Of a stretch of DNA of 64,000 bases, positions 20,607 to 62,569 are shown piece by piece. The stretch lies in assembly GCA_000091205.1 (NCBI GenBank), contig AP006500.2. One strand, 5' to 3'. Both the position numbers and the translations under genes were made by a program. The DNA is from Cyanidioschyzon merolae (taxonomy: Eukaryota). The notes beneath the pieces were generated by a model. It did no database searches and was not told where the DNA came from. It saw nothing but the letters and a program-made list of their open reading frames with translations. Every line of letters starts with the position of its first letter. Position 1 is the first letter of the stretch.

Positions 20607-21108
20607 TTAATACGTCGGTATCTCCGTGCTCTCAAGGCCCATATTTTGCTGTCCAAAGACGTTGATGGCAGCCTTGAAGTCCCCATTTAGCAGCGCCCAG
20701 CTATTGACGACGCATTTTATGCTTAGGAGGACGTCGCGATTCACGAATCGCTTCCCATTTTCATCTACTTTGTATTCAGCCCAGGTCTGCTCTTCGTAGG
20801 GGTGAAACTTGACCGCGATCACGTGTTCCATTGTGTCCGCTAAAATTACTCCTCCTGCGGATGCCACGCTGTGGTTCACGAAAGCTTGGTTCATAGCGCA
20901 TTATATGCCTTTGATGAGCATAGATGGCTCCGTTCGCCATTTTGATCAGCTTCTGGACCCGGTGCCACACCTTACGATAACAGGCTTTCTCTGGGCGATC
21001 CCCTCGGGGAGTATTCTTTCCACTGTACACGCAAGAGCTCCAAGCTCCATTCCATAGCTTCCTATCTGGCTCCTTGCGCGCTCTTCGTTTTCTGCCTACT
21101 CTTCCCAT
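20607..21108 (-). pseudogene. Degenerate TnpB/Fanzor-like (RuvC-III region) remnant, copy 1
   Basis: Overlapping minus-strand ORFs in different frames. Contains 'GKRFVNRDVLL...GDFKAAINVFG', and the nucleotide segment 'cgattcacgaatcgcttcccattttcatc' is homologous to the copies at 23.2k, 27.8k and 53.85k. Confidence 0.4.
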
Positions 21109-22299
21109 AAATCCTGCCGATGAGCTTGATGGGCATCAAGGTACCTGAACCGATCAAGAGCAACGTGTCCGCACTTTCCATGCGCTTTCGACAAGGCAGT
21201 AACGGCCTATGAAATTCGTTCCTGTTTCGCTCCCTTGAAGTAACATTCTCTCATTCCGTTCCTTCTCCTAAAAAAGAACATGAAAGGTGTGTGAGTAGAA
21301 CACAAGAATGTAGGTAAAATTCGGAGCGTTGGAGACATCCGGCTCTCGAGCGTGGCCGTTGACGACAGGGGTCGGTGTCCTCTTCGGGTGTCATGGAATC
21401 GCAGTTGCAAAGGCTTATCCTCCATGGATACATGCCGGTGCAGTTCGCATTGAGGACAAAGTTCGCAGGACTATGCATCCGCATTGCTCGGCGCTGCTCG
21501 GCGTAGCTCCCTTTCTGGGCATGGGTACATGTGCGCACTGTCGGTCATGAAGCGTGCAGGACGTTCGTGGATGGTGTTGAATGTTGCCTCGCCAGCGGTC
21601 TCGATGGAGGGCAACTGTTGCCCTATGTATAGTGCAAACCGCCTGTACCTCCCTTTTTCTTCCCATTCGCATCTCTCTTTGCTTTCAGTCGATTTTTGTT
21701 CATCCAACAGTTTACAAGTTCCTTCTAAGCTTCGAGTGAAAATTGCAGTGTTCCCTTCATCATGTCTTCGCCCGCAAACATCTACTCTTCGTTTTCAACG
21801 CTGTCGTTTTCCACCGGACGCATCTACGCCTAGTTTGCGAGGATGCCCCCTCTACAATGAAGCGAAAAGCGCGCGAATCAAGACGCTGGTATAAAAGACC
21901 GAGAGATTCATTCGAATTAGGCAAGATTATTTCCGTTAGGGGCGCTGGAACAGCACGCCACATGCAGAAGCACCATCGCTTTCGTGTGCGGGTTACTCAC
22001 AGGTGGTGGATCCACCTTATTCTCGGCGTCGTCGCGCTTGAAGGATCTTCTATGGAGGTGCTTCATGGACTAGGTATTCTGCGAGCCTATTAAGCCTCGC
22101 CGAAGAGCCACTTGTGAAGAGCTATCTCATGCTGCTGACTGAGTTGCCGACCTCTGACTATGCTGCATCGAATCCCCCATGTTGGGAAGGAGACTGACAG
22201 CTGATTGGCAATTCGAAGTGAATAAGAACAGAAACCAGCACCCAGCGAGAAATTGGATGTGCGTTCCTCTCTTCCTCCTGCATAAGATATTGAGGAAGA

Positions 22300-22750
22300 A
22301 CACTTTACGTGTATTTGGAAGTTTATCTTATACGCGAGAGGTCCGTCGAGACGAAGCACTCTACCGGACGAGTCCTTCGCGCGCTCCCCGGGTTGGCTGC
22401 TTTCGCGAAACCTGAACATATCGTCTGGAACGCAGTTTTCTTTCTGGCTACGAGTTGGCGGACTGTTTCTGAACTTCGCCACGGTCGCTGTAATCTCCCA
22501 GCTTGTCGTTTCGCGCCGCCTGCAGCCTGTTTGAGCGACCTTCTGAATCCCAGAATGAGGATGAGTTTCGACCCTGCGTCGGGTAAAGCAATTTGGTGCC
22601 GACGCCCCCATGGTATGGCAAAGCCCTTCTGTCCCCGTGCTGCATCCTCACCGGCGCTGTGGGCCTCATTGTGAACGCTCACAGCTGGCTCGACGCACGA
22701 TGGAGCGATTGGAAAGACAGTTATCTTAGAGAAGAATGATATGTACAACC
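22300..22750. repeat. Fragment related to the 1.38-kb direct-repeat family
   Basis: Minus-frame peptide 'MRPTAPVRMQHGDRRALPYHGGVGTK' (22669 downward) parallels 'MTPIAPVRSLHGGRTALPYHTEGVGS' of the DR copies (36972 and 47630 downward). Nucleotide identity is about 75% ('gccgacgcccccatggtatggcaaagcc' versus 'gccgacgccctctgtgtggtacggcaacgcc'). Confidence 0.45.
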
Positions 22751-23059
22751 TGGTGGAAATTTCAGGCTGGGCGATATGATGGACGGTTTCTCGGATGCCG
22801 TGATCAGTCGCGCAGTTAAACCCCTCTGTCAGTGTAAATATTTTGTCGTTTAAAAAATTAGAAAAAAATCACATTCGACGCGCCGCTGTTCGAAGTGATC
22901 AGATAATGAATGCTGTAGCAAAAAGATGGACAGAGTCTGTGCTGTCCTATTTATACAAATCGTCCGTGGAACAAACAATGTTTTACGAGCATGTGGAATA
23001 AATTAGTATCCACTCACAGATGCCTTCCATCCTTTTTAAGCGTCCGACTGCTATCGGCT

Positions 23060-23326
23060 TCAGCTTCTCCAAGCGCATTTCGACTCTGAGAGGTTGCCCC
23101 AAAAATTTGCTCGTGTCAGCCCCTCGGGTACCGTCTTCAGCACCGTACATCTCCTGACATTTATGACAGCGTTCCAGTCTCGATTCACGAACTCCATGCA
23201 TTTCTTGCCGCTGTTTGAACTCACCAGTGCAAGGAGAACTCGCGCGCCTGCCTTTTGTACCATTTGCTGCTTCGTCAGCTCTGGGTGCCTATCTACCACC
23301 GAAGCGCTCCGCTGCCTTTCCGCCAT
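23060..23326 (-). pseudogene. TnpB/Fanzor-like C-terminal remnant (RuvC-III motif), copy 2
   Basis: 'GKKCMEFVNRDWNAVINVRRCTVLKT': a Cys, then the 'RDxNAxINI' motif, which is the hallmark C-terminal catalytic motif of TnpB/Fanzor RuvC-III. It lies directly 3' of the transposase remnant on the same strand. Confidence 0.5.
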
Positions 23327-23470
23327 CTCTACCCTCTGGAGTGTACATCAAAGCTCATCCCTTAGAGTTTTTATTTTTTCTAACTGAATGCACTTCTTTA
23401 TGCCACCAGGAGAGGATCTTTTCCGAAAGAGAAGCATTTGCGGAAGACAGATGAAATGTGCCAGGATATG

Positions 23471-24087
23471 TCACTGTGTGCTGAAAGGTTCAGCGAATCG
23501 CATATTGGAGCGATCATTACCTGTCACAATAGGGAACATTCCTTCGATGGGGTTGAACCAAGGATTATACGGAGGACTGAAAAGCAGTTTTGCCTGGATA
23601 GAATCTGCAAAATCTCGAACACTAGCGGAATGATGAAATATTACGTTGTCCAAAAGAAGATCGTCGCCAGCCTTCATGGAAACGTCTTCAATGATGCGGC
23701 AAAGTGGGTGCTGTTGAATCAGCCTTCTCTACGAGCGAAACTGAGGCCGACAATAGTATCCACTACATCTAGAACAAATGATGATATTCTCGTTCCCTTC
23801 GAGTTCGATCATACGAACAATGGGCACCCTGCTCAGCGAATACCCATACACTTTCCGATCGTTCCGTGAGAAGAAATCTCACAGACTGAAACACATCTAG
23901 GTTCCACTGCTTCATACCGATCGCGACGTTCATGGAACTCTGTAGATGCATTTTCGGTGGAATATGGCCTTGCGTGAACAAGGACTTTCTTGCGACTGTA
24001 TCCCAGTGTTTTCAGTACCACACGAACAAGCTGTTGAGAAAGAGAGACTCCCGTGGTGACTGTGATCGACGCTTTTGCATTCCGCAA
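23471..24087 (-). mobile_element. Frameshifted Tc1/mariner (IS630-like) DDE transposase remnant
   Basis: Three minus-strand ORF pieces. An HTH region 'LSQQLVRVVLKTLGYSRKKVLVHARPY' (23833..24087). A degenerate first-D region (23769..23981). The C-terminal catalytic region 'LLLDNVIFHHSASVRDF...LLFSPPYNPWFNPIEGMF' (23471..23677), matching the Tc1/mariner 'DNA..H....PPYSPDLNPIE' signature. Confidence 0.6.
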
Positions 24088-25289: not shown

Positions 25290-25673
25290 ATGGGTAAAAA
25301 AACCACTAAAACTGCGAACAAAGCAGGTACAGGTTCGAATTCGACCGACTCAAAGCTGAAAACAGCCAACTTTGTGAAGGCTCGACACATTCTCTGCTCT
25401 AAGCAGGGTACCATCCAGGAAGTGTATAAGACGCTCATAGAACGCACAGAGACGCAGCGCTCCGCGTTGCCATCGACTTTCGCCGAGCTCGCATCCAAGT
25501 ATTCTGAGTGTCCGTCTGCCAAACGTGGTGGAGACTTGGGCTGGTTCGACAGGCAGAAGATGGAACCGAAGTTCAGGGAAGTGGCCTTCTCCACTGCTCC
25601 CGGGAACGTCTCGGAGCCTTTTAAAGGTGCGAACGGCTGGCATATTGTCTTCGTTGAAGGCCGCCGGAACTAG
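25290..25673 (+). CDS. Parvulin-type peptidyl-prolyl cis-trans isomerase (Par14/PIN4-like)
   Basis: 127 aa. Basic N-terminal tail 'MGKKTTKTANKAG'. Parvulin core 'KARHILCSKQG...FAELASKYSECPSAKRGGDLGWFDRQKMEPKFREVAF...GWHIVFVEGR'. Confidence 0.8.
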   Translation: MGKKTTKTANKAGTGSNSTDSKLKTANFVKARHILCSKQGTIQEVYKTLIERTETQRSALPSTFAELASKYSECPSAKRGGDLGWFDRQKMEPKFREVAFSTAPGNVSEPFKGANGWHIVFVEGRRN

Positions 25674-25754
25674 CTCAGACCGCTGGGAGTCTGCATACTG
25701 CTTGACCCGCAGACCGGTGCCGTCGACAAGCGTTCAAGTTTTCTTAGGGTACCT

Positions 25755-27146
25755 CTGTACCCTTGCCAGTCTAAAACGGAGCACTGAACTGCTCGCCATG
25801 CTCCTGCATTTCGGTATTTTCCGAACATTTTTTCGATGTGCAGCCTCGACAATCGAAGTGAAGCAATAACGGCGTACGGTTTCATAAGTGGTTTTACGAT
25901 TCTCGCGCGTATTTTGGGAGTGACTCGGTTCACGCCCTGCCGCTGCAATTCGTCACATTTCATCAATCAAAGTGCACCGCGCGGCCCTGGAGCATGCGTT
26001 CGCACGGTAACCGACATCAGTTTGCAAGCCGAACGCCCCAGCGTCCGCTCCTGCCCTCTCCTCCCCTTGCGCGTGTCATGCTCAAACCACGCATTCTCCA
26101 AGTCTTCGATTCTTCCGTTTCGGGGCACCTCGTGGGGGCAGCTATTCGCGCCGATGGATTGACGAGCAAAATACCACACGTAGTCTATTGGCGACTTGTG
26201 CACAAGCTCATGCCGAAAGCTCCCTGCACTCGGCACGTCAAATGAACGATTCCGTTCGATAGACAAACCCTCCTTTCTCTGTAGCTATCAAGGAGACGGC
26301 ATTCGACATCAGCATGGTACCATACACAAAGAATCCACCAGGAAGCTCCAGTTTCTTCCGTTTGCACGGAAGACGGGCGTGAACTCGGGCTTTAGTCATT
26401 GCACGGACCGTTTCCAGTGGGGAACGCATCTCTGTTTCGCGCCACTGGAATATAGACAGATCGAAACCTCTCGACTTGTTCTCCAGCCTGGATTCTCCTT
26501 CCGGTGCGTGTCTCGTCGTGGGCAACATCGTGCCCCGCGAATCCTCTGTCGAATAGCGCAGGATGCGCTTCCGAGTGCGCAGCGGACAGAGTTCTCGCTG
26601 GAAGCATGGCCCAGCGGAAGCCCCAGATCATGGGGTACGGTTCAGTGCGCCGAAGCGGAGGTGGGCGTCCACGCGCGCCTTCTGCACCGGTCAAGGGCAT
26701 GTGCCGAGCGCTGAAGCAAGCCTTCAGGTGCCACAGGGCGGCGCGCGAGCTCGGATGTCTGATGGACATACAGAAATACCTGAACACAGCCAAGTGCCAC
26801 AGCGGCGAAGTGCCTACTGAGCCGTACGGAAAGAGGACGAGAAAAGCGCGCAAAGCGTATATCGCAAATTTCGTACTTGCATGGAATGTGTCGCCAACAA
26901 CCGGTAACAGCTGCATAGGGACATGAACGCTGCCACCAACAGCCTTCGACAATGTGCACTGGAGCTGGTGGGAAAGGGGGGTATGATGCATTTAAAGCCG
27001 GAAGTAAGAGGGAGGACACCGAACCGGTCACCGAAAAAGCCGTGAAAGGCTGGTATTGATGGCAGTGGCAGGAGAGGCCCAACCTGTTTGTGTGCGTGTC
27101 CCCGGATAACACAGTGGACCCGTTCCATTTTAGCCTGACGTAGATG
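25755..27146 (+). repeat. Left arm of a large inverted repeat (~1.39 kb); member of the dispersed repeat superfamily
   Basis: The reverse complement of 29024-30405 matches almost base for base. The ORFs of the two arms mirror each other (25836..26162+ = 29998..30324-; 25967..26266- = 29894..30193+). Boundaries were fixed by direct comparison of the junction sequences. Small indels between arms include 'ccccactggaaacgg' versus 'ccccacggaaacgg'. Confidence 0.85.
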
Positions 27147-27767
27147 TAGCCGGTGAATGATCGCAGGCGATGCACGAAGCACGCGGCGGTAGCGGTAGGA
27201 GTTCTGTGCTGTTCCATATATACGGCGTTGTCATACGTTTGCAGTCCGTTTGTTACGCGGCAAAGAAGGATTAATATTCAACTCAGAGCAGGTCATGGAA
27301 GTCGATTCAATTTTGCCATTCAATGTCAAATTTTGTCATTCATGGACGCTTGCCTCATGTTCTTGGGTGGCTCGACTCGCACTCTCGTCGCTAACGCATC
27401 GGTACGGAGCAGTTCTGAGCTCATCGCGGCACAGCGTTCCGTCGATTTCAGGTAAAGCGCAACTGGGCATACGCTGCAAGTTGAATAGGATATTGGTTTA
27501 CTTGGACCAAATGAAGGGGTCGTTGAGCCCAATAAGTTTATCCAGATGCCCTTCCACATAAAGGAATCGATAAACTTCGGAACTGTGTTTCAGTTATCAG
27601 AAGGACCAAAAAGCGTTCTACAACCATGCAGTCCAAATACCCGCTTACTCACAGACGCCTCCCAGCTTTCTTTTGGCAGGCAACCGAAATTGGAATCCGT
27701 TTTTATCCCAGCGAACTTCGATACCGAGAGACCGCCCCACAAAGTTGGCTCGTGCCGGCTCCTCGAG

Positions 27768-28016
27768 TCAATTCGTCAAAACCACACATCTTCTGATATT
27801 GATGGCGGCTTTGCAATCTTGGCTCACGAACTCCTTGCATATATTGCCTCTGGTTGAACGCAACTTTGCATGTTTCCCTCGAACTTGCACCCTCCGCGCC
27901 ATTACAATCTCGTCATCGTTCCGTCGGGCAAACTCCTCGGCCCGCCTACATCCTTGTTCTTCTTCAATTGCTCTTCTTCGCTCGTTCGGTAGCTGGCGAT
28001 GATGGCCCTCCAGCAT
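27768..28016 (-). pseudogene. TnpB/Fanzor-like C-terminal remnant, copy 3 (in the IR spacer)
   Basis: 'RGNICKEFVSQDCKAAINIRRCVVLTN'. The nucleotide segment 'ctcacgaactccttgcatatattgcctctggttgaacgcaac' is homologous to 23.2k ('ttcacgaactccatgcatttcttgccgctgtttgaactcacc') and 53.85k. Confidence 0.5.
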
Positions 28017-29023
28017 CCCCGACTTCCATATCCATATCTCTCACTAAGACCTTTTTAAAATAAACACACTTCGAACGTATATGCTATAAACCACAAAAGA
28101 TAAGCATTTGATTCCACTCATCTGGGCGTGGAACACAATTGAAGAAAAAGACTACAAGATACAGGCAGCCGTTGCTTTCAGGAATACGGCACGCGTTGGA
28201 GTTTGGATCATGAACCTGGACGCTGGCGGCGGTCGTCGCAGCCGCCGCTGCCGTCTGCGGCCTCAGCGTCAAAGAACGGCTGCATTAAATTATTTTACTC
28301 GAGGGCATCGCCTTCTTCTATACTGCTGAAGCATACAGACGTTATTTCTTTGTTAAGCTTGCGCTTAACGCTCGACACCCAAGCTCGCGATTGTTGTCCA
28401 ATAGCATGGAATCTCTCTCTACTGCACCAAGGGATGAGCGCTTTCCCCACACGAACCAGACGAGGAACTGCTGGGTTCGCTACGTTGAGTGGAAACTGTG
28501 CGAAGAGAAACACGGCGAGGAAGAGTCCGAGTGCAAAAAGTTTGGTCGTTGGGCACGCGCACTTTGCCCAGTAGACTGGATCGAGCGGTGGGATGAACAG
28601 CGAGCAAACGGGACGTTTCCTGGGCCCTCCGGCGAGTCCTCGTGAGCATATGGCGCTGCATATTTCAGTGACTACGGGCTCCGCGGAAGAATTGGAACTT
28701 TCCTAGTACTGCTTTTTCTGACAGATTGAGGCGAAAGGTTCTGGGCGACTTCCTCGACGGAGAAATGTTTTCCACTCGAAAGAATATCATGCATATGGTT
28801 CTACAACCACAAAACAACAGCAGGTCTGTGTCGTATGCGACTTGCGAGTTTTATGGCCTACCTCCTGGTCTCTTGTCATGAACAACGGCGCGCCATGTGA
28901 AAGCATGGAAGCCCATCATCACTTGAGAGAATTTGATTGAAATTCTTTGGACCAGAGGAGAAATATAATCACACTCGGGAAGTGCTTATGGCGATGTTTC
29001 TCTTGTTCGCTAGACATCTACGT

Positions 29024-30405
29024 CAGGCTAAAATGGAACGGGTCCACTGTGTTATCCGGGGACACGCACACAAACAGGTTGGGCCTCTCCTGCCACTGCC
29101 ATCAATACCAGCCTTTCACGGCTTTTTCGGTGACCGGTTCGGTGTCCTCCCTCTTACTTCCGGCTTTAAATGCATCATACCCCCCTTTCCCACCAGCTCC
29201 AGTGCACATTGTCGAAGGCTGTTGGTGGCAGCGTTCATGTCCCTATGCAGCTGTTACCGGTTGTTGGCGACACATTCCATGCAAGTACGAAATTTGCGAT
29301 ATACGCTTTGCGCGCTTTTCTCGTCCTCTTTCCGTACGGCTCAGTAGGCACTTCGCCGCTGTGGCACTTGGCTGTGTTCAGGTATTTCTGTATGTCCATC
29401 AGACATCCGAGCTCGCGCGCCGCCCTGTGGCACCTGAAGGCTTGCTTCAGCGCTCGGCACATGCCCTTGACCGGTGCAGAAGGCGCGCGTGGACGCCCAC
29501 CTCCGCTTCGGCGCACTGAACCGTACCCCATGATCTGGGGCTTCCGCTGGGCCATGCTTCCAGCGAGAACTCTGTCCGCTGCGCACTCGGAAGCGCATCC
29601 TGCGCTATTCGACAGAGGATTCGCGGGGCACGATGTTGCCCACGACGAGACACGCACCGGAAGGAGAATCCAGGCTGGAGAACAAGTCGAGAGGTTTCGA
29701 TCTGTCTATATTCCAGTGGCGCGAAACAGAGATGCGTTCCCCACGGAAACGGTCCGTGCAATGACTAAAGCCCGAGTTCACGCCCGTCTTCCGTGCAAAC
29801 GGAAGAAACTGGAGCTTCCTGGTGGATTCTTTGTGTATGGTACCATGCTGATGTCGAATGCCGTCTCCTTGATAGCTACAGAGAAAGGAGGGTTTGTCTA
29901 TCGAACGGAATCGTTCATTTGACGTGCCGAGTGCAGGGAGCTTTCGGCATGAGCTTGTGCACAAGTCGCCAATAGACTACGTGTGGTATTTTGCTCGTCA
30001 ATCCATCGGCGCGAATAGCTGCCCCCACGAGGTGCCCCGAAACGGAAGAATCGAAGACTTGGAGAATGCGTGGTTTGAGCATGACACGCGCAAGGGGAGG
30101 AGAGGGCAGGAGCGGACGCTGGGGCGTTCGGCTTGCAAACTGATGTCGGTTACCGTGCGAACGCATGCTCCAGGGCCGCGCGGTGCACTTTGATTGATGA
30201 AATGTGACGAATTGCAGCGGCAGGGCGTGAACCGAGTCACTCCCAAAATACGCGCGAGAATCGTAAAACCACTTATGAAACCGTACGCCGTTATTGCTTC
30301 ACTTCGATTGTCGAGGCTGCACATCGAAAAAATGTTCGGAAAATACCGAAATGCAGGAGCATGGCGAGCAGTTCAGTGCTCCGTTTTAGACTGGCAAGGG
30401 TACAG
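29024..30405 (-). repeat. Right arm of the large inverted repeat
   Basis: See the left arm. Terminal junctions are 'acatctacgtcaggctaaaatggaac' (inner) and 'gactggcaagggtacag' (outer). Confidence 0.85.
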
Positions 30406-34982: not shown

Positions 34983-36080
34983 TGGCCAACAGCGCCCGCG
35001 GTATATATGCGAACGAAACGGCGAATAGAGACCCTACAGGCTGTCGTACGAGTAAGTCGCCAGCTGTCCATGCGGTAAGCGCCAGTTGACACCTCGGGGC
35101 TATTTCGATTCCGCACCCGCAGACATTGATCCGTCTGTATTGGACCGGATGTCAAACCGGTAGCATGGGAGCTAGGATTTTCGATACGGACGCGACGGCA
35201 ATCGCATGTTAGTCTGAGCGTTGCTCCGCTTGTGCGAGCTCTCGAGACAGACTCGGATACGAGAGCTGGTACCCGTCTGCGATGGACCCGCTTGGACTGC
35301 TACCTTGCACCGGCGCTCGCGGGAGATAGGAAACTAGAATCCTATCTTTCTGTCAAAACCTTCCTGGAATTCCCTTGGGGTGCTTGATTCTATTCAGCGT
35401 TCTTCAGTCTGGAACTGGCGGGTGCCAAAGTGTTGCTGTTATTCTGATAGTTTCACTCATGCAGCAAAGGCGAAGGCCCTCTCGAAGACGCAGCAATGCT
35501 CCGCGCTTGCCGTCTGGGCGCTGATCTCTCCCCCCTCCATTCTAGACAATTACCGATGCTCTTGGGATTCGCTCTGGCCATCGCTTCTCGCGGGGCCAGC
35601 TCAGGGCTTGAACGACAGCGCGGCCTCAGCAAGTTGGGTTATTCTCGTGAAGGCAAGTCGGTTGATTGCATGCTGCACGCGCTACTATTCCGTACGGCAG
35701 AACGAGCGTTCTAAACCAGCGCCTACGGGTCGCCTTTCGAACGCTGCAATTCCTCTCTGGTGACCTGACAGGAGGGCTCACCCAAGATCTCGCTTGCTCG
35801 TAGGGCTCTCAGGGCCGCGCCACTGAATACTGACGCAGCCCACTCCTGCAAACTTTGACGATACAGAACCTGCGGCCTTTGAGGCTTATGAAGCGTGCCC
35901 CGTGGGGCACGCATTCTGCATTTGCGTCGTGACTCCACAGCAGGGCAGCCGCCAATGCAAACAGCCCGTAACCATCGGGCTCGCGTGTGCGGCCTGTTAC
36001 CGCACGGTTAGCCTGTCACCAGGAGGCAAAAACACTTGTCAGGCTCAAAAGATGCATTGCAATCTTCATTTTGTTCCCGC

Positions 36081-37460
36081 CTTTCGATCGTTTCCCGAAT
36101 GTTCGCTAGAAACACAGCTGCAATATTCAAAGTGCAGCAATAACGGCGAATGGATTCATGGGTAGTTCTATGCCCCTCGGTTGTACTATCCGTAGGGATC
36201 CCGTCGACTCCCTGCCGCTGGCATTCGATACGTCACCGGGATCAAGATGGTTCGTGACGCCCTCATACGCGGGTTCGTAACATAGCCGATATCATCATCT
36301 CATTCAGTCGCACGCGCCTGCACTCTTCTGTTTTCCTCAAGTATAGCATGCTTGAATCATGCATTCTTCAAGTTTTCGATATTTCTCCTTAAAGGCAACT
36401 CGAGGGCGCAGCAATGCGTACAGCTGGGTGGACAGCGAAAAGAATCGCAACGACTTCACTTGAAGACTTTGTCACATGCTCATATCGAAGGCTGACTACA
36501 ATTGTCAGGTCAGCTAATCGCATCCGTCCGAGAAGGAAATCCGCCCGTCCTTGAGACAAGCGGCAACGTGGCGTTCACAGCCGGCGAGATAACGCTCACG
36601 GCATACGTCCCCAGAGGCTTCGCTCGCTTCCGTACACACCGAAGAAAATCGGAGACTCAGACCTGAGTTATCGCAGCGACCGCGCCAGATAGAGAGTCTG
36701 GCACCGCCTTGCACGGAGGAAGCGTAGACGGATCGAAGTTTTCTAGAATTGCGCTCCAGCCTGCATTTTTGCCTCGCGGTACATGGTTCACCACGAAAAG
36801 CTTCCCGTTCCACGAATCCTCCATCGAATGCGACACTGTGCACTGGCTTGCGCTGGCTTGCACTGGCTTGCGCTGGCATTGCCCCGCACTGCCTCGAGCC
36901 GACGCCCTCTGTGTGGTACGGCAACGCCGTTCTGCCTCCGTGCAGCGACCGCACTGGCGCTATAGGCGTCATTGCTGTCGCTTTCGGCAGGCACTAGGCA
37001 CACACGATAGGACGTATGAAACGACTAGAATATCCGGGAAGTAGTGTGGGTCATGGAACTTGGAGGCAGGGCGTTCGATGGCTACTTCACCGCACACAAA
37101 CAAAAAGAAAACAAAAAGTGCACAATCGGAGAACGCTGGCCTAAGTAAGCATTTTGTCAGTGAGAAAAATCCGACACTGTGTTCGCTGAGGGCATTGCGC
37201 TGATGCAACCTGCCAGCGAAGCGCACGGCAGCGAGCCCGCAAACTGAGAAGAGCATCGTGGTAAGCCTTCGATACTCGTCAATTGCATGGAACGAGCGAA
37301 AACGCGAGCTGTACGACGCCTCAAAACGGCCCTCCGAGGAAGAGGAGCAGGAGCAGGAGAGGCTTTGGTGGATATACGGGAACACCTGACCACAGCCAAA
37401 AGTCATCGATGCGAGGACGCACAGAGGCTGTATACAATGAAGATGAAAATGGCAAGCGAA
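36081..37460 (+). repeat. Direct repeat copy 1 (1.38 kb), a divergent member of the dispersed repeat superfamily
   Basis: Essentially identical to 46739-48119 at an offset of 10,658 bp. The embedded ORFs are identical (36514..36972- = 47172..47630-; 36709..37044+ = 47367..47702+). Only two single-residue differences were seen in the translated ORFs: H versus Q, and M versus R. Confidence 0.9.
36844..36883. repeat. 10-bp minisatellite (CTGGCTTGCR)x3-4 inside DR copy 1
   Basis: 'ctggcttgcgctggcttgcactggcttgcgctggcattgc' read directly. The mirrored copy is at 47502-47541. Confidence 0.8.
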
Positions 37461-38360
37461 GCGCAGGCTGCAACAACCGTCCGCGCAACAAGTGCGTCGA
37501 CAACTACCGAACGCAGTAAAATCGGGACTTTACCACCACCGCCATCAATATCCTGCGACTGCCGAAAACCTAGCCAGAGAAGATAGGAACAGGAAGCAGT
37601 CACAGAAAAAGCCCGCACACGCTAGTCTCGATGCCAGCTCGAAGACATCCAGCCGTTCAGATTCGCACTCGAGCGCGCAGCGAGCACCGCAGCGTATACC
37701 TAGCGGACACGTATGTCGGACCCGATCCAACTGGAGGCCCCTGTGCGCTGCTTCGTTGCTGGCGGGCAACGCGCAAGCACGCGCGCGGCGCCGTTGACCG
37801 CGAGATCGACGGCGGGTATCTCACGCGTTGCGCGAGCGGCTGTATGCGATGGCGCGCGCATCTGCAAACGCCGCCTCTGAAAATATCTGAGGAGCGGGGC
37901 GTACACGCGGCGCCGAGCGTCGCGTCTCGAGAACGTTTCGCGGGCGATCCTGCGGCGAAGGCGCGCTTCGTCTCGACATCGCTAGATGCTGTGCGCTGCA
38001 TTATCGAATGCAGCTGCGCGTCAGCGGTGATATCTTGTAGCTGCAGTGCTGTGACGTGAGCGACCAGTTGCTCGATATTTGCGTGAGACTTCGAATCAGC
38101 GCTATAATATCATAGTTGTGGAGGTTGACGGCTTCTTTGACTGGTTCGAGGGGTGAGCGACTACATCTACTAGAAGCAGTGAGCAAAGTCCGGACGGCGG
38201 CGGCGGCGGCTTCTAGAACCTCGGTACGCTGAGGGTTTGGCACGCGCAGGCGCAACCGAGCTCGAGAACGCAACTCCTGGGGCGAATTTGTGCCAAACTT
38301 TTTAGGTTGTTTTCTTGAGTTTAGTTCGTCTGTGGGCGGCTAGAGTGTCGGCGCGGTACG

Positions 38361-45328: not shown

Positions 45329-46738
45329 CCTGCTCCCTCGCCAGCGTCGTGTGTCGACGGCAAGGAGTACTCAAGAACCTCGAAACGCACCCGAACCGCA
45401 ACACAAAACCGGCAATCACGACACGCTTGCACTAGCTATCGTAAGCACTGGAAGCTCCTGAGCTGTTTCAGTCTCCCCGTTTTGCAAGCCCCAATGAACT
45501 ACAAACCAAAGCGCACCAGCAGTTTATCTCCAAGCCACAAACTGACAAAACTGCTGCCCCGAACGAGCCACAGACACTATACCAATAACAACCCGCCGTG
45601 TGGACTTTCAGAAAACAAGCCCGGCAACAAAAACTATTGCCGCGGCTTCAACCAGTTGCAAGCCAATGCGTCGATAGATAATTAGCAACGCTTGTTGCGT
45701 CGTCCGCCGTCGCTGCAGCCGCGTTGCCCGCTGGATCGCGCAGATCGCGCCCATCCCCGTTGCTGTTGCGCTTTTCTTTAAGGCTGCGACGGCGCGCGTG
45801 CGCTCGTGCACCGCGTGGAGGCTCCCCGGGCGCTGCTGTTGCTGCCGCGCGCTTTAAACCAAACAGACACGCCCTCGACGACGGGGACGGCGATGGATGT
45901 CACATGTGACATCCGGCGAGACCGCATGAGTGGCGCTGCGCTCCCGCGTCCGCGACGTGCCGTGGTGCGAGCGCGGGGCGCGATCGGAATGGGAAATTGG
46001 ATAATGCAGACAATGCGGACAGGCTGCGCGGGCGTCGATTTCTTGCTGATCCCGTGGCGACGCGTGCGGGTTGTGTGGAAACGGCAGCGGGCAGTCATGC
46101 CGTGCACCGCATGCCGTCGCTCGGTGTTGGCCATGGCGGGGCGGTGGCGCACGCGCTCCTCATTGATAGGGGATTCGCGGTGGTAGAAGACTCGGACTGG
46201 GTGTTATGCTGGAGTGCCCAGTTTGAAGTCACCTGCCTGAAAGTGCGTCTTCGCTCGAAAACTGCGAATTCCGAAGGTGTTTCTGGTGCCTAGATGTCCA
46301 ATCAGCAGTGGTTACGATGGAGCTCAGTTTCTGAGTGACCTGGTGCGCTGACGGTAGCGTGACGTCGCTGCATTTGGGCCTCGGCCATGGTCTCTTCGAA
46401 GCGCAAACCTCCTTTATGACTGCGTAAGCCAGTCTGTTTGAAAAGATGTGTGGAATCCGTTTACCTCCACGGTCCACAGGATGAAAGACGCTGATATACC
46501 CACTTGATGTTTGACATTGCGGTACAAGACAGACAATCGCAGTTGCCTTGCTCCGAGGCTGCATAGTCGGTGTGCACGGTGTCGTCCGTGGGAATTTATC
46601 ATGATGCACTGATTGCGACAAATATCGCTGCGGCTTATTGGTACACGCGGATGAACAAAATGCAGCTACTTGGCCCCAAGCTCTGCTGAACCCATTTCGG
46701 ATAAAAATGGAACACTGAAATGCTCGTAGTGTTATTTT

Positions 46739-48119
46739 CTTTCGATCGTTTCCCGAATGTTCGCTAGAAACACAGCTGCAATATTCAAAGTGCAGCAATA
46801 ACGGCGAATGGATTCATGGGTAGTTCTATGCCCCTCGGTTGTACTATCCGTGGGGATCCCGTCGACTCCCTGCCGCTGGCATTCGATACGTCACCGGGAT
46901 CAAGATGGTTCGTGACGCCCTCATACGCGGGTTCGTAACATAGCCGATATCATCATCTCATTCAGTCGCACGCGCCTGCACTCTTCTGTTTTCCTCAAGT
47001 ATAGCATGCTTGAATCATGCATTCTTCAAGTTTTCGATATTTCTCCTTAAAGGCAACTCGAGGGCGCAGCAATGCGTACAGCTGGGTGGACAGCGAAAAG
47101 AATCGCAACGACTTCACTTGAAGACTTTGTCACATGCTCATATCGAAGGCTGACTACAATTGTCAGGTCAGCTAATCGCATCCGTCCGAGAAGGAAATCC
47201 GCCCGTCCTTGAGACAAGCGGCAACGTGGCGTTCACAGCCGGCGAGATAACGCTCACGGCATACGTCCCCAGAGGCTTCGCTCGCTTCCGTACACACCGA
47301 AGAAAATCGGAGACTCAGACCTGAGTTATCGCAGCGACCGCGCCAGATAGAGAGTCTGGCACCGCCTTGCACGGAGGAAGCGTAGACGGATCGAAGTTTT
47401 CTAGAATTGCGCTCCAGCCTGCATTTTTGCCTCGCGGTACATGGTTCACCACGAAAAGCTTCCCGTTCCACGAATCCTCCATCGAATGCGACACTGTGCA
47501 CTGGCTTGCGCTGGCTTGCACTGGCTTGCGCTGGCATTGCCCCGCACTGCCTCGAGCCGACGCCCTCTGTGTGGTACGGCAACGCCGTTCTGCCTCCGTG
47601 CAGCGACCGCACTGGCGCTATAGGCGTCATTGCTGTCGCTTTCGGCAGGCACTAGGCACACACGATAGGACGTATGAAACGACTAGAATATCCGGGAAGT
47701 AGTGTGGGTCATGGAACTTGGAGGCAGGGCGTTCGATGGCTACTTCACCGCACACAAACAAAAAGAAAACAAAAAGTGCACAATCGGAGAACGCTGGCCT
47801 AAGTAAGCATTTTGTCAGTGAGAAAAATCCGACACTGTGTTCGCTGAGGGCATTGCGCTGATGCAACCTGCCAGCGAAGCGCACGGCAGCGAGCCCGCAA
47901 ACTGAGAAGAGCATCGTGGTAAGCCTTCGATACTCGTCAATTGCCTGGAACGAGCGAAAACGCGAGCTGTACGACGCCTCAAAACGGCCCTCCGAGGAAG
48001 AGGAGCAGGAGCAGGAGAGGCTTTGGTGGATATACGGGAACACCTGACCACAGCCAAAAGTCATCGATGCGAGGACGCACAGAGGCTGTATACAATGAAG
48101 ATGAAAATGGCAAGCGAAA
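46739..48119 (+). repeat. Direct repeat copy 2 (1.38 kb)
   Basis: See copy 1. Junctions: starts 'ctttcgatcgtttcccgaatgttcgc', ends 'gatgaaaatggcaagcgaa'. Confidence 0.9.
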
Positions 48120-48814
48120 TATGCATCGAAACATCTGCATGCGCATGAAATGTGTTGAAAACCACTGGAAGCAGCAAAACAGGGGCTTTAAATCTGCAGT
48201 GAACATCTTCCGATCGCTAATGATGGAGCTGGAAGGAACGGAGACACCGTCGTATCTCAAGTCGGAGCTCGAAGAGAAGGAAGAAAATCAGCCGCGAAAA
48301 AGCCCTTAATGCCTGTTGCTGACGGCAATTGGAGGATACCTAAAATTCAGTATTCACGTTCGAGGTAGAATAGTGTATCCGTTTCATTTTATTCTGAGAG
48401 AGGTCTAGCTCATGGCAGCTATAGAAAATGACTCACTGACTGGCTGCCACTTGCGATGAAGAGCTTGCATAGCAGGTTCTTTTCTAGATCGCAACACCTA
48501 CTGCAGGACCAGAGCTTGGGACAGTATCGTGAATAAGTGTTGTGCTTTGAGAAAGCGGCTGCACGGGCTCTGTACCAGAACGACAAGCGCGGTGAGCCCG
48601 CTACGCTGAAGATGCATTCGCGTTCGAAGCAGCGGCACACACAAGTGCGGTGCTGTCGCCCGCTAGCGCTGGGAGCGCTCCGCAAGCACACTCTTGAGGG
48701 CAACTTTCCCATCACGAGTCGAGTACTTTCACGCTTGCACAGTTCTAGAGCCGCGAGAGGCAGCACGCACAACTTCGTGGCCGCTGAAGCAGACGGCGCT
48801 CCTCGAGTTCGAAG

Positions 48815-51499: not shown

Positions 51500-52099
51500 T
51501 GATGCACGTGCCGTTCTGATCAGCGTTTCAGTACAGTGGGCGTTGTATCCAGGGGTGTAGGTAGCGCTCAGCCGCGTTGCCAAATGTGGTGGCTTCTGTA
51601 GCGGCTTCGATGGATTGTCCTTGCGAGTACGAGGTGCTGTCCGCATGAACGCGCACGCTCTTCTGGAGTTGCTGTTTGTCGAAGACCTGTTCGCCCCTTC
51701 TTTGGCATATGTGTTCGTGCAGTATCGATTTTCTCGACGTTGCGAAGCAGGGCGGATGTGCTGCTCTCATGCTGCTCGTTGCGGTAAACGTATAGATCAT
51801 CATGCAAGCTCAGGGGTGTTTCTTCGTTTTGAGCGTGCATCTACAGGTTGCAGGTCAGGAGGCACTCTCAAAACAGGTGTGCCTGGTGAAAAGCGCGCTA
51901 CGATGCCTGGAAGAGAGTAGTGGAGGCTTCCGGTCTCTTTCGGATCTTCGTGGCAGACTCAGCGCCCGGACGGTCGCTGAGTCTGCCAAATTGTTTTCTT
52001 AGAGTATGGTTGTTCAGTTTGTGGAATCTGGACACATCGCCGCTACATCCATTTTACATTAAAGAGGGACACGTTCTCGAACGCTGACGGACACGCTCA

Positions 52100-53110
52100 A
52101 ATTCTGGCCTTTTTTGATTGCCATCATCATAAGCATTTGCAGGATGTTTCTGCGGATGCTTCATTTTCCTCTTCCTTATCTCCGGATTGTAAAACGCAGA
52201 CCTCTACTGTCGCTTTTTTTCTAGTGCAAGGTGTAAAAGGACGTTGTTGGTAGCGCCAAATGCCCGATTTCGTAGTTTTCCGCTGTTGTCGAAGCTTGTT
52301 ACGCACAGAAGGAAGCTGCGATCTACGCTTCGATTGCCGTTTTCATCTTCCTGTGTACAACTTGTCGGCCTGCTTGGCAGCGATGACACTTTGCTATGGT
52401 CAGATGTTCCGGTATGTCTCGTGCAGTAAGTCCTGCTTCTAGGGCCATCCTATGATTCTTGAACGCTCGCCCTGCAGCTCGGTAGAAGCTTTGGACGAAA
52501 AAGAGGGCTTTGCTCGATGCCTTCCTATTTTGTCGTGATCGCTATCGTCTCATACGATCACGAGCTTCCTCTGGAAGATTCCCTGGACGAGGACTCTGTC
52601 CGCTGCGCATGGGAGCGCATGCTTTTTCACTAGAGATGGGATTTGCGGAACGCGATGTTGTCTATGATGAAAAGTACCTGAAAGAAAATCTACGCTGCAG
52701 AACAAGTCCAGAAATTTCGATCCATCTACGTGCTCTTCGTCGAATGCTGCATCACGTTTTGCATTGCAAGCGATCGTACCGATGGCTGAATTCCAAGTCC
52801 AGGACCCTTTTCCACACAAGCAGAAGAGAAGGAAGCCTCCGAGAGCGTATTCAGTGATGGGATTATGGCGCTGTCGATTGCTGTTTCAAGGGCGGCCATG
52901 ACGAGAGTGGAATTTGTCCTTCGAACAGAATCGATTGTTAAACGTTAGAAATTAAGTGGGCTTTGAGCCTAAGATTGTGAATAGGTTGTCAAAGGGCGAC
53001 GTCGAGTATTTTTTTGCCGTCAATGCAATGGCGTGAGTTGGTGCGTCTACTAGTTGCCTCGAAACAGGGATATCGCAAACTTGGGGAATCTACGATTCGA
53101 GAATGCTGCA
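52100..53110 (-). repeat. Partial copy of the dispersed repeat superfamily (core2-complement at ~52690, core1-complement at ~53090)
   Basis: 'ctgcagaacaagtccagaaatttcgatccatctacg' matches 'gactggagaacaagtccagtattttcgatccggatacg' at 63150. The 52128-52400 region aligns with 62596-62830 ('cataagcatttgcaggatgtttctg' versus 'cataagcgtttgcagaatgtttctg'; 'ggaagctgcgatctacgcttcgattgccgttttcatcttcc' versus 'ggaatttgcgatctacgcttcgcttgccactttcatctcc'). Confidence 0.6.
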
Positions 53111-53587
53111 CACGATGAACGGAGAATCGGGGCTTGGACGCATGCACTGGATAATTATATAGATTGCATGGCGAAGCCTTGTCCAATGTCATTGCAAATT
53201 ATGCGGGTTACGGTAAAGTAACCAAATCTAGCGGCGAAGCATACATTGCGCGACTCCGAAAAGACGAGCAAGCACTCCAAAACTAAGAATGAATTCGTAA
53301 GCCCATAATCTTGCATTTTGAATGTCAAGTATATTCATCGGGAAAAACGAAAGGAAACCACAGAGCGCGCTATTCAGTATTCCATTTTCATCTGATGTCG
53401 GTGAAGATATCAGAGCTAGGTCCCGGCGATCAACAACGTTTTGCAAAACCCGAACATTTTTGTTCATCATGTTCGATTCTGTGGCATGACAAACGCCGAA
53501 GGCGTCATACCCATTTGCGTCTGCTGGAACAAGCGAGTCTCTGGGAAGGCGCTGAAGTCTCGTACCCTGATCGTTGGCAGCGATCCC

Positions 53588-53935
53588 TCATCCAGGAAGC
53601 GCTGACTCAACTGGCCCATAATTTAGGTGCTCAAGGACGCGAAAACGTTTCGCTACCATAGAGTGTACATATATGTCTACTTGCAGACAACTCCCGGACT
53701 GTTTCGACAGGACTCCTGCTATCCTCTTCAGCTTCTCATCGTATACTTCGAGCCCGAGAGGCTGCTCCATAAAGTTAGATAGCCACAGCCCTGCGGGTCT
53801 TGTCTTCAGTACCGCACATTGTCGGATTTTTATGGCGATGTTGAAGTCTCTGTTCACGAACTCTATGCGTTCGTTCTCGCTGGTGGAATTCACTGATACA
53901 AAGAGTCCTCGGACTCGTGCCCTGTATGGCGCCAA
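53588..53935 (-). pseudogene. TnpB/Fanzor-like C-terminal remnant, copy 4
   Basis: 'NERIEFVNRDFNIAIKIRQCAVLKTRPAGL'. The nucleotide segment 'ttcacgaactctatgcgttcgttctcgctggtggaattcact' is homologous to the other copies. Confidence 0.45.
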
Positions 53936-62482: not shown

Positions 62483-62569
62483 GCGGGCAAACCTAGTACT
62501 CCTTCACCCATTTTCGAGAAAAAATGGATGCATCCATTTGGTTACCTCGGGTGTGAAAACAGAAAAGTT

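What the first reader, a model, noticed from the sequence alone, without database searches (positions are those of the whole stretch)
20607..53935. Four decayed copies of a TnpB/Fanzor-like RuvC-III remnant scattered through the intergenic DNA
The copies lie at 20.6-21.1k, 23.06-23.33k, 27.77-28.02k and 53.59-53.94k. All are on the minus strand. Each keeps a short reading frame ending in 'C.EFV(N/S)(R/Q)D.NA(A/V)INI(R)RC.VL(K/T)(T/N)'. This is the C-terminal 'zinc-ribbon, then DxNAAxNI' catalytic signature of IS605 TnpB (OrfB) and of eukaryotic Fanzor RNA-guided nucleases. The copies are only about 70% identical at nucleotide level, which argues for old independent insertions and against a recent duplication. 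Only the 3' end of the gene survives in every copy. In TnpB/Fanzor elements that is where the guide (omega) RNA scaffold and the transposon right end are encoded. The retained pieces could therefore be non-autonomous, omega-RNA-bearing ends or solo right ends. An intact member elsewhere in the genome would be a candidate programmable nuclease from this lineage.
Basis: partly seen in the sequence, partly recalled or inferred. Interest (0 to 1): 0.72.

Follow-up and report, generated by a model that had tools for sequence, protein, structure and literature searches.

The report
Decayed Fanzor transposon relics, red alga
[quoted passage not shown] They are real, but the main family was published for this genome in 2013, so the finding is largely ordinary.

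Summary
The window is Cyanidioschyzon merolae 10D, chromosome 18.

**Family A.** Copies at 23.0-23.4k, 27.7-28.2k and 53.7-54.2k are old copies (69-74% identical) of the published Fanzor1 element CMe-1A (Bao & Jurka 2013). That family has about 150-253 copies, and some are reported to be intact. Two of the three copies share an in-frame internal deletion.

**Family B.** The locus at 20.5-22.1k is a pseudogene of a second Fanzor1 lineage. Seven further copies of this lineage lie in the window, each about 1.4 kb with roughly 30-bp terminal inverted repeats. They are deletion derivatives of a two-gene Tc1/mariner-type transposon (DDE_3 transposase plus Fanzor1). Intact, multi-copy relatives exist only in metagenomes, and their predicted fold best matches solved Fanzor1 structures.

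**Third relic.** An older Fanzor1 relic lies at 771-2162.

**Other checks.** I found no conserved RNA structure at the 3' ends and no Rfam hit, so the idea of omega-RNA-bearing ends is unsupported.

**Verdict.** Novelty is low: family A is already known, and family B is at most a new member of the known mariner-Fanzor1 kind.

The parts
23031..23358 (-). c2: 5'-truncated 3' fragment of a CMe-1-type Fanzor1 element (family A). It corresponds to consensus 2737-~3100, i.e. CMe-1 aa 612-721 including RuvC-III.
   Evidence: blastn to the CMe-1A consensus gives 73.6% identity, E 8e-44; tblastn to CMe-1 gives E 3e-25. The 3' tail is shared with c3 and c4 but differs from the published consensus.
27652..28154 (-). 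c3: internally deleted CMe-1-type copy (family A). Consensus ~788-1066 is joined directly to ~2831-3100.
   Evidence: The peptide RRNDDEIVMARRVQVRG spans the junction in frame.
53679..54198 (-). c4: internally deleted CMe-1-type copy (family A) with the same junction as c3 (consensus ~818-1062 joined to ~2841-3088).
   Evidence: c3 and c4 align across the junction (27715-27979 against 53745-54013).
22319..22656 (-). Fragment of the CMe-1A 5' non-coding module (consensus 191-539). This is the part that Bao & Jurka equate with TE-N2_CMe.
   Evidence: blastn gives 69.8% identity, E 5e-34.
20461..22051 (-). c1 / B20: pseudogene of a family B (mariner-associated) Fanzor1. It covers about aa 250-767 plus the 3' UTR and right terminal inverted repeat, with at least 5 in-frame stops.
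   Evidence: tblastn places P0024 aa 495-767 at 21263-20571 (E 3e-14) and P0031 aa 250-465 at 22051-21323. The right TIR motif lies at 20471-20487.
23471..24087 (-). Relic of a DDE_3 (Tc1/mariner/IS630-type) transposase. It belongs to the same transposase family that sits upstream of the intact family B Fanzor1 genes.
   Evidence: Pfam DDE_3 E 2.5e-10. It is 40-43% identical to aa 207-268 of the metagenomic 317/326-aa transposases, E 1e-13. There is a weak HTH_33 match.
14017..15395 (-). B14: non-autonomous family B element. Layout: TIR, transposase N-terminal ~233 aa, Fanzor1 C-terminal ~220 aa, TIR.
25756..27148 (+). B26: non-autonomous family B element. It is 99.9% identical to B29.
29013..30405 (-). 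B29: non-autonomous family B element, the inverted twin of B26.
36029..37719 (+). B37: family B element that carries a CMe-1A 5'-module fragment at 36892-37070.
46687..48407 (+). B48: family B element that carries the same inserted fragment at 47550-47728. Its interior is 97.9% identical to B37.
52044..53405 (-). B52: non-autonomous family B element.
62503..63876 (-). B62: non-autonomous family B element.
771..2162 (+). Relic C: an older, more divergent Fanzor1 pseudogene that keeps its RuvC-III motif (FLNRDLSAHISI).
   Evidence: tblastn places P0078 aa 234-696 here (E 6e-26) and CMe-1 aa 445-692 (E 5e-14).

Best explanation
The loci are non-functional relics of DNA transposons that carried Fanzor1, the eukaryotic TnpB homologue. 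Fanzor1 is an RNA-guided RuvC nuclease that rides on transposons. The host genome is Cyanidioschyzon merolae.

**Family A (c2, c3, c4)** is an old subfamily of the published CMe-1A Fanzor1 element. c2 is 5'-truncated. c3 and c4 descend from one master copy that had lost codons ~55-641 in frame.

**Family B (c1 plus seven more copies)** descends from a two-gene Tc1/mariner-type transposon with this layout: TA, TIR, DDE_3 transposase, Fanzor1, TIR, TA. An internal deletion of about 2 kb fused the transposase N-terminal part to the Fanzor C-terminal third. That 1.4-kb non-autonomous derivative then amplified, presumably using transposase supplied in trans. c1 (B20), together with the transposase relic at 23.5-24.1k, is a remnant of the longer form.

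**Present state.** All copies now carry stops and frameshifts and lack RuvC-I, so none can be a nuclease. The Fanzor 3' end is over-represented simply because it lies next to the right transposon end. Any deletion derivative that is still mobile must keep that end.

**Shown:** homology, element architecture, the shared deletion junctions, the TIRs, and the decay.

**Inferred:** mobilisation in trans, and the order of events.
For: **Organism.** Two ORFs match C. merolae 10D proteins BAM82586 and BAM82588 exactly, on a 1,253,087-bp contig. That length equals chromosome 18 (PMC11050394).

**Family A.**
- It matches the CMe-1A consensus and the CMe-1 protein (sequences taken from the PMC3627910 supplements).
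- The same paper reports about 150 copies roughly 80% identical to the consensus, some intact.
- PMC1955436 reports 253 WSV486-like repeats making up about 5% of the genome.
- c3 and c4 share one deletion junction.

**Family B.**
- The consensus C-terminus hits PF07282 above the gathering score.
- tblastn of the intact metagenomic proteins against the window gives E values down to 3e-14.
- A profile of those proteins against CMe-1 gives hhalign probability 98.2%, E 6e-14.
- Their AlphaFold model best matches SpuFz1 (E 2e-11 to 4e-10), then GtFz1 (7e-5), then Cas12f and similar. Among viral proteins it matches Fanzor1-type proteins including WSSV Wsv486.
- In the protein alignment D457, E641 and R731 are invariant, and D732 (RuvC-III) is conserved in at least 90% of sequences.
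- Intact relatives are arranged as a 317-aa DDE_3 gene, 72 bp, then a 765-aa Fanzor1 gene, and the same element sits in many different flanks.
- That transposase matches the window copies, and the family B transposase part weakly hits DDE_3.
- The consensus TIR matches at 24 of 30 positions. The TIR motif occurs 6 times against 0.37 expected, always at element ends.

**Decay.** Copies are 63-73% identical to each other, and there are in-frame stops.
Against: - I could not search the C. merolae genome itself. Copy numbers and the existence of intact copies in strain 10D therefore rest on the literature, not on my own tests.
- TA target-site duplications are clear only for the intact metagenomic relatives. 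They are blurred in the decayed window copies.
- B26 and B29 are 99.9% identical. This shows that not everything here is ancient. It could mean recent mobilisation, which would require an active transposase that has not been shown to exist in this genome.
- The published CMe-1A 3' consensus folds somewhat better than shuffled sequence (z = -2.9). A functional RNA in intact elements is therefore not excluded.
Confidence: 0.9

Rival explanations
1. The retained 3' pieces are functional, non-autonomous omega-RNA (fRNA) modules or solo right ends. They would supply guide-RNA scaffolds to intact Fanzor1 proteins encoded elsewhere in the genome.
For: - In characterised Fanzor and TnpB elements, the guide-RNA scaffold overlaps the 3' end of the ORF and runs to the right end (PMC10530073).
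- All family B derivatives, and c3 and c4, keep that region.
- The last 269 nt of the CMe-1A consensus fold with z = -2.9.
- Three family A copies give an RNAalifold structure of -40.8 kcal/mol with some double changes, but with only three sequences.
Against: - RNAalifold on seven family B 3' ends gives -3.5 kcal/mol over 355 columns.
- RNAalifold on 69 distinct metagenomic CMe-1A 3' ends gives -9.6 kcal/mol over 420 nt, essentially no consensus structure.
- No Rfam family reaches its gathering score anywhere in the window.
- The copies diverge at a neutral-looking 27-35%, and their 3' tails differ from the CMe-1A consensus.
- Retention of the 3' end is already explained by its position next to the transposon end.
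Confidence: 0.05
2. The near-identical family B pair (25756-27148 and 29013-30405) reflects recent transposition. That would mean an active mariner-type transposase, and perhaps an active family B Fanzor1, still exists in C. merolae.
For: The 99.9% identity stops within 1-3 nt of the family's TIR ends, and a TA flanks three of the four ends.
Against: - Both twins are as decayed relative to the family consensus as the other copies.
- A second high-identity tract (36081-37532 against 46739-48190, 97.9%) starts and ends inside two family B copies. That is the signature of ectopic gene conversion, not transposition.
- The literature reports only eight degenerate transposase-like elements in this genome (PMC1955436).
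Confidence: 0.25
3. The loci are fragments of a conserved host gene family or a domesticated nuclease, not transposon debris.
For: Short ORFs are present. Some are called as hypothetical proteins in metagenome pipelines.
Against: - The Fanzor reading frames are interrupted by stops and frameshifts.
- RuvC-I and the N-terminal domains are missing.
- The copies are dispersed, lie in both orientations, are bounded by TIRs, and sit in DNA with no NCBI gene model.
- They match a published repeat consensus.
Confidence: 0.02
4. The motif similarity is due to chance, or the sequence is bacterial IS200/IS605 TnpB (contamination or horizontal transfer).
For: The motif is short, and the raw ORFs give no Pfam hit.
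Against: - E values against the published Fanzor1 consensus reach 8e-44.
- The best structural matches are eukaryotic Fanzor1, not TnpB.
- The proteins are about 700-770 aa and have the 'VIVGYG' replacement at the canonical RuvC-II position with the conserved E shifted downstream. The statement that this is typical of Fanzor1 rests on my recollection of the literature.
- The partner gene is a DDE_3 transposase, not a TnpA of Y1 or serine-recombinase type.
- The flanking genes are C. merolae nuclear genes.
Confidence: 0.01

Closest known systems
CMe-1A / Fanzor1 'CMe-1' of Cyanidioschyzon merolae (Bao & Jurka 2013, Mob DNA 4:12). This is the same repeat as the '253 copies of a WSV486-like interspersed repeat' of Nozaki et al. 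2007.
   Same: c2, c3 and c4 align to its 3169-bp consensus and its 734-aa protein. The match includes ...RAKVRGLLALVS..KKRMEFVNRDFNAAINIRRCAVL...GQPL...GRRL. Same genome.
   Different: - The window copies are only 69-74% identical to the consensus, against the ~80% reported for the family.
- They end the ORF at GRRL*.
- They share a different ~50-bp 3' tail.
- c3 and c4 carry a shared internal deletion that the paper does not describe.
Together these points suggest an older or sister subfamily.
Mariner/Tc1 transposons carrying Fanzor1, e.g. PUl-1 and PUl-2 of Pythium ultimum (Bao & Jurka 2013), and the Fanzor1c-Mariner/Tc1 association (Jiang et al. 2023, PMC10530073).
   Same: Family B ancestors and their intact metagenomic relatives have a DDE_3 transposase gene followed by a Fanzor1 gene on the same strand. 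They have TIRs of about 30 bp and an apparent TA target-site duplication.
   Different: - In C. merolae only deletion derivatives and pseudogenes are seen in this window.
- The protein family (P0024-P0037) had no NCBI- or UniRef-sourced member among the hits.
- It is only about 24% identical to CMe-1.
Spizellomyces punctatus Fanzor1 (SpuFz1; PDB 8GKH, 9CEU).
   Same: It is the best structural match of the family B full-length model (Foldseek E 2e-11, TM 0.42-0.52 over about 780 columns).
   Different: - Sequence identity is about 14%.
- Neither a single-sequence nor a profile search of the PDB detects it.
- No guide RNA has been identified here.
Bacterial and archaeal TnpB of IS200/IS605 and IS607 (Pfam PF07282, Cas12f1-like TNB, formerly OrfB_Zn_ribbon).
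   Same: They share the RuvC-III 'RD.NAA.NI' motif preceded by a CxxC...CxxC zinc ribbon. The family B consensus and P0035 pass the Pfam cut-off.
   Different: - The host is a eukaryotic nuclear genome.
- The proteins are about twice as long.
- The partner transposase is DDE_3, not TnpA.
- CMe-1 itself has lost the zinc-finger cysteines and fails the Pfam model.
Internal-deletion (non-autonomous) derivatives of Tc1/mariner elements, i.e. MITE-like elements.
   Same: The family B copies keep both TIRs and have lost the middle. All share one deletion junction, which implies they amplified after the deletion.
   Different: At 1.4 kb they are longer than classical MITEs. P-MITE reported no MITEs in C. 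merolae (PMC3964958 abstract).

Membership tests
Fanzor1 (eukaryotic TnpB homologue) | RuvC-III motif (R)D.NAA.NI near the C-terminus | tested here: met
   The motif is present in c2, c3 and c4, in c1 as NGDFKAAINV, and in the family B consensus as NRDFNAAINIL. In the intact relatives, D732 and the NAAINIL positions are conserved in at least 90% of sequences and R731 is invariant.
Fanzor1 (eukaryotic TnpB homologue) | Complete RuvC triad (RuvC-I D, RuvC-II E, RuvC-III D) in one polypeptide | tested here: not met
   This fails for the window copies. RuvC-I (LDPGR) is absent from every copy, and the frames are broken. It is met only in the intact metagenomic relatives (D457 and E641 invariant, D732 at least 90% conserved) and in the published CMe-1 (GADPGN...VDEFRTS...NRDFNAA).
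Fanzor1 (eukaryotic TnpB homologue) | Zinc-ribbon / TNB domain between RuvC-II and RuvC-III (Pfam PF07282) | tested here: inconclusive
   - Family B consensus: 30.7 bits, above the 26.3 cut-off.
- P0035: 34.1 bits.
- Raw window ORFs: no hit.
- Family A consensus: E 0.059.
- Published CMe-1: E 0.52, cysteines lost.
Fanzor1 (eukaryotic TnpB homologue) | Overall fold of a solved Fanzor1 (WED, REC and RuvC domains) | tested here: met
   Tested for the family B full-length relative P0024 only. Its top PDB hits are SpuFz1 (E 2e-11 to 4e-10) and GtFz1 (E 7e-5). The model has mean pLDDT 72.
Fanzor1 (eukaryotic TnpB homologue) | Associated structured guide RNA (omega RNA / fRNA) at the element end | tested here: inconclusive
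   No conserved structure appears in alignments of family B or CMe-1A 3' ends, and there is no Rfam hit. The CMe-1A consensus has z = -2.9. No RNA data are available.
CMe-1A element of C. merolae | Nucleotide similarity to the published 3169-bp consensus, in the C. merolae genome | tested here: met
   c2 E 8e-44, c3 E 1e-16 and 2e-14, c4 E 2e-20 and 2e-13. The genome identity is established.
CMe-1A element of C. merolae | The same 3' terminus as the consensus (...GAAAGGCG) | tested here: not met
   The window copies diverge from the consensus after GGGAGGCGTCTG and share their own tail. In contrast, 43 of 80 metagenomic copies reach the consensus end, and conservation drops sharply there. The window copies are therefore a sister or older subfamily rather than CMe-1A in the strict sense.
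Tc1/mariner (IS630-Tc1-mariner, DDE_3) transposon | DDE_3 transposase | tested here: met
   - Relic at 23471-23677: E 2.5e-10, above the cut-off.
- Family B transposase part: E 1.4e-4, below the cut-off. It is homologous to the DDE_3 genes of the intact relatives (with Pfam marks).
Tc1/mariner (IS630-Tc1-mariner, DDE_3) transposon | Terminal inverted repeats | tested here: met
   The consensus ends pair at 24 of 30 positions. The motif is enriched 6 against 0.37 expected and is found only at element ends. The intact relatives have ends CTACAATCTTGTTA... and ...TAACATAGGTGTA(G).
Tc1/mariner (IS630-Tc1-mariner, DDE_3) transposon | TA target-site duplication | tested here: inconclusive
   TA flanks both ends in four independent insertions of the intact relative and several window copies. 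No empty site was available to prove duplication.
Prokaryotic IS200/IS605 or IS607 TnpB element | TnpA (Y1 or serine recombinase) partner, subterminal hairpins, prokaryotic host | tested here: not met
   The host is a red-alga nuclear chromosome, the partner gene is DDE_3, and the ends are TIRs.

The most novel reading that the evidence does not exclude
The 1.4-kb family B derivative may be a 'double parasite'. On this reading it kept the TIRs to borrow the mariner transposase, and it kept the Fanzor 3' third because that region encodes the guide-RNA scaffold. Fanzor1 supplied in trans would then home or retain the non-autonomous element as well.

Two related points. Family B appears to be an undescribed second Fanzor1 lineage in a genome reputed to have almost no DNA transposons and no MITEs. 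Its intact, apparently active metagenomic relatives (for example P0031, with an identical protein in at least 81 index blocks) would be untested candidate programmable nucleases.
Probability: 0.05. Interest if true: 0.55.

Novelty: already known. Interest (0 to 1): 0.15.

Why it matters
**Practical value.** The result matters mostly for annotation. It shows that roughly a quarter of this 64-kb stretch of a genome described as nearly transposon-free is Fanzor-transposon debris from three lineages.

**Method caution.** The standard Pfam model misses even the published C. merolae Fanzor1. A 'no HMM hit' result should therefore not have been taken as refutation.

**New detail.** The modestly new items are:
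- a second, mariner-borne Fanzor1 lineage, present as TIR-bounded deletion derivatives;
- signs of ectopic gene conversion between copies;
- a set of intact two-gene relatives in metagenomes that could be tested as RNA-guided nucleases.

None of this changes what is known about how Fanzors work.

Tried and rejected
- **Pfam on the raw ORFs** of the four loci gave no TnpB or Fanzor hit. Only consensus reconstruction worked.
- **Sequence searches of the PDB** with the family B consensus, with P0024 and with a 14-sequence profile found nothing relevant. Only the fold comparison found Fanzor.
- **TIR search on individual decayed copies** failed. TIRs appeared only from the consensus.
- **A single composite element spanning 24.4k to 20.5k.** I considered that the transposase relic at 23.5-24.1k, c2 and c1 form one element. 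The transposase family fits, but no left TIR was found near 24.2-24.8k, so this remains unproven.
- **Giant-virus origin for family B.** The idea came from the gene content of the P0032 contig. A scan of IMG/VR found no relatives, so I left it as a note.
- **RNA structure** at the 3' ends gave negative or inconclusive results.
- **Rfam** gave no hits.

Full report
**What the window is.** Two ORFs of the window are exact matches to Cyanidioschyzon merolae 10D proteins: BAM82586 (an aarF/ABC1 kinase, 17688-20264) and BAM82588 (a parvulin, 25290-25673). Both lie on a contig of 1,253,087 bp, which is the length of chromosome 18 (table in PMC11050394). The sequence is therefore nuclear DNA of a unicellular red alga.

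**Checking the observation.** Three of them are related at DNA level: c2 at 23.06-23.33k, c3 at 27.77-28.02k and c4 at 53.59-53.94k. They are 66-73% identical over 168-272 bp, with E values of 1e-12 to 3e-19. A six-frame motif scan finds the 'FVNRD.NA.INI' string only at these three places.

The fourth locus, c1 at 20.6-21.1k, shares no DNA similarity with them. It matches other places in the window instead (48.1k, 52.3k, 37.4k, 14.3k, 62.8k, 26.9k, 29.3k). The four loci are therefore two families, which I call A (c2-c4) and B (c1 and its relatives).

**Family A is the published Fanzor1 element.** Bao & Jurka (2013, PMC3627910) described one Fanzor1 family in C. merolae, CMe-1A. It has about 150 copies roughly 80% identical to a 3169-bp consensus, a 734-aa protein (CMe-1), no TIRs or target-site duplications found, and some intact copies. 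Nozaki et al. (2007, PMC1955436) had earlier counted 253 copies of an interspersed repeat with a truncated ORF weakly similar to WSV486 of white spot syndrome virus, making up about 5% of the genome.

I took the consensus and the protein from the paper's supplements and compared them with the window.
- c2 corresponds to consensus 2737-3020 (73.6% identity, E 8e-44).
- c3 corresponds to consensus 791-954 plus 2831-3001.
- c4 corresponds to consensus 832-969 plus 2841-3088.

A finer alignment shows that c3 and c4 both run from consensus ~790-820 to ~1062-1066 and then jump to ~2831-2841. This removes codons ~55-641 in frame, and the peptide RRNDDE(I/T).MA.R..VRG spans the junction. The two copies therefore descend from one internally deleted master. 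c2 is simply 5'-truncated.

All three end the ORF at GRRL* and share a ~50-bp 3' tail that differs from the published consensus. They are best described as an older or sister subfamily. Fragments of the CMe-1A 5' module lie at 22319-22656, 36892-37070 and 47550-47728.

**Family B is a second, mariner-borne Fanzor1 lineage.** Aligning seven copies gives about 1.4 kb of shared sequence. The consensus translation ends ...KPVIVGHGTE...VSLVDIREHLTTAKCHRCEG...LCMKCVDNNRKQRNRDFNAAINIL. It passes Pfam PF07282 (Cas12f1-like TNB, formerly OrfB_Zn_ribbon) at 30.7 bits against a cut-off of 26.3.

A search of the large protein collection found C-terminal fragments and, through their cluster, a full-length 767-aa protein, P0024. 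Thirteen relatives of 536-863 aa followed, all from metagenome or Logan assemblies and none from NCBI or UniRef. In their alignment D457 (in LDPGR), E641 (in WEHLTT.KC..C) and R731 are invariant, and D732 (in NRDFNAAINIL) is conserved in at least 90% of sequences.

Sequence searches of the PDB found nothing. Other evidence places the family in Fanzor1:
- The profile matches CMe-1 with hhalign probability 98.2%, E 6e-14.
- The AlphaFold model (mean pLDDT 72) has as its best PDB matches Spizellomyces Fanzor1 (E 2e-11 to 4e-10) and Guillardia Fanzor1 (E 7e-5), followed by Cas12f-type proteins.
- Among viral models it matches giant-virus 'transposases', baculovirus TNB proteins and Wsv486.

In metagenomic contigs the intact genes sit 72 bp downstream of a 317-326-aa DDE_3 transposase gene on the same strand. 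The identical 765-aa protein occurs in at least 81 index blocks with different flanks. The element ends are CTACAATCTTGTTA... and ...AACATAGGTGTA, with a TA on each side. This is the known Mariner/Tc1-Fanzor1 arrangement (PMC3627910; PMC10530073).

In the window, that transposase matches the 5' halves of the family B copies (aa 1-233, E 6e-10) and a separate relic at 23510-23692 (aa 207-268, 40-43% identical, E 1e-13). The Fanzor proteins match the 3' halves from about aa 546 onwards. The family B copies are therefore deletion derivatives that lost about 2 kb, from the transposase C-terminus through Fanzor aa ~545. Because all seven share that structure, they must have amplified after the deletion.

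Their consensus ends are inverted repeats: GCTACACCCTTCTCAGATTAAAACGGAACA against GCTACACCTATGTCAGAATAAAATGGAACA, matching at 24 of 30 positions. The outermost bases resemble the ends of the intact relatives. The core motif occurs 6 times against 0.37 expected, always at element ends.

Element boundaries are 14017-15395(-), 25756-27148(+), 29013-30405(-), 36029-37719(+), 46687-48407(+), 52044-53405(-) and 62503-63876(-).

It aligns in one frame to P0024 aa 495-767 with five in-frame stops, and further upstream to aa 250-465 of P0031. It is thus a relic of a longer Fanzor gene. Its 'FVNRD' lies in the zinc-finger segment, and its true RuvC-III motif is NGDFKAAINV.

Families A and B share only the NRDFNAAINI motif.

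**A third relic.** The stretch 771-2162(+) matches P0078 aa 234-696 (E 6e-26) and CMe-1 aa 445-692 (E 5e-14).

**Are the fragments omega-RNA modules?** I found no support for this.
- RNAalifold on the seven family B 3' ends gives -3.5 kcal/mol over 355 columns.
- A metagenome scan found at least 494 CMe-1 copies. Their 3' boundary is sharp at consensus position 3169. Yet 69 distinct 3' ends give only -9.6 kcal/mol over 420 nt.
- The three window copies give -40.8 kcal/mol, but three sequences cannot establish covariation.
- The published consensus folds with z = -2.9.
- Rfam has no hit in the window.

Retention of the Fanzor 3' end is explained more simply. It abuts the right transposon end, which any mobile derivative must keep.

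**Recent events.** B26 and B29 are 99.9% identical over the whole element and inverted. They flank 1.87 kb that holds c3 and a COX6B gene. This could be recent mobilisation. However, a second tract (36081-37532 against 46739-48190, 97.9%) begins and ends inside two family B copies, which points to ectopic gene conversion. I favour conversion for both cases.

**Verdict.** The Fanzor identification is right, the loci are real, and they are non-functional. They are not one family, they are not solo 3' ends, and nothing supports an RNA function.

Fanzor1 relics in this very genome have been in the literature since 2013, and as 'WSV486-like repeats' since 2007. Family B is at most a new member of the known Mariner/Tc1-Fanzor1 kind. 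I found no description of it in the searchable literature, but I could not consult Repbase.

Noticed in passing
window 25756-27148 and 29013-30405: Two whole family B elements are 99.9% identical and in inverted orientation. They flank 1.87 kb that contains c3 and an intact COX6B-like ORF (28391-28645, Pfam E 9e-17). The layout resembles a composite transposon. It may result from recent mobilisation or from gene conversion.
   Followed up: partly
window 36081-37532 and 46739-48190: A 1.45-kb direct repeat, 97.9% identical, starts and ends inside two otherwise diverged family B copies. It includes a shared inserted CMe-1A 5'-module fragment. This looks like ectopic gene conversion between dispersed repeats about 10 kb apart.
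   Followed up: partly
window 771-2162 (+): A third, more divergent Fanzor1 pseudogene lies here (P0078 aa 234-696, E 6e-26).
   Followed up: partly
window 23471-24087 (-): A Tc1/mariner-type DDE_3 transposase relic lies directly upstream of c2. It belongs to the transposase family that accompanies intact family B Fanzor1 genes. Together with c1 it may be the wreck of one autonomous two-gene element, later invaded by CMe-1-type fragments. No left TIR was found.
   Followed up: partly
window 23031-23358 then 22319-22656 (-): A CMe-1-type 3' end is followed about 370 bp later by a CMe-1A 5'-module fragment in the same orientation. This head-to-tail arrangement of an element whose transposition mechanism is unknown (no TIRs or target-site duplications reported) might bear on how it inserts.
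   Followed up: no
L002 (JGI 3300028372, Ga0306901_1000170), 1-20726: The contig carrying family B relative P0032 is gene-dense. It encodes a 2625-aa Peptidase_S74 protein, a 2OG-Fe(II) oxygenase, ATG8 and a UvrD helicase. This gene content resembles a giant virus or a compact protist genome. No relatives were found in IMG/VR.
   Followed up: partly
L003-L010 (ENA and JGI metagenome contigs): An apparently active two-gene element (317-aa DDE_3 transposase plus 765-aa Fanzor1, P0031) is present with an identical protein sequence in at least 81 index blocks and at many insertion sites. The Fanzor stop codon is only about 40 nt from the right end. The host is unknown.
   Followed up: partly
published CMe-1 protein, and window ORFs of c1-c4: Pfam PF07282 does not detect the published C. 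merolae Fanzor1 (E 0.52). Its zinc-finger cysteines are largely lost. HMM-based screens would therefore miss this lineage.
   Followed up: yes
window 24741-25094 (-): A 117-aa ORF between the transposase relic and the parvulin gene recurs at over 90% identity in nine metagenome or Logan gene calls, but it has no NCBI-sourced entry in the protein collection. It may be an unannotated small gene, or simply a region conserved among strains.
   Followed up: no
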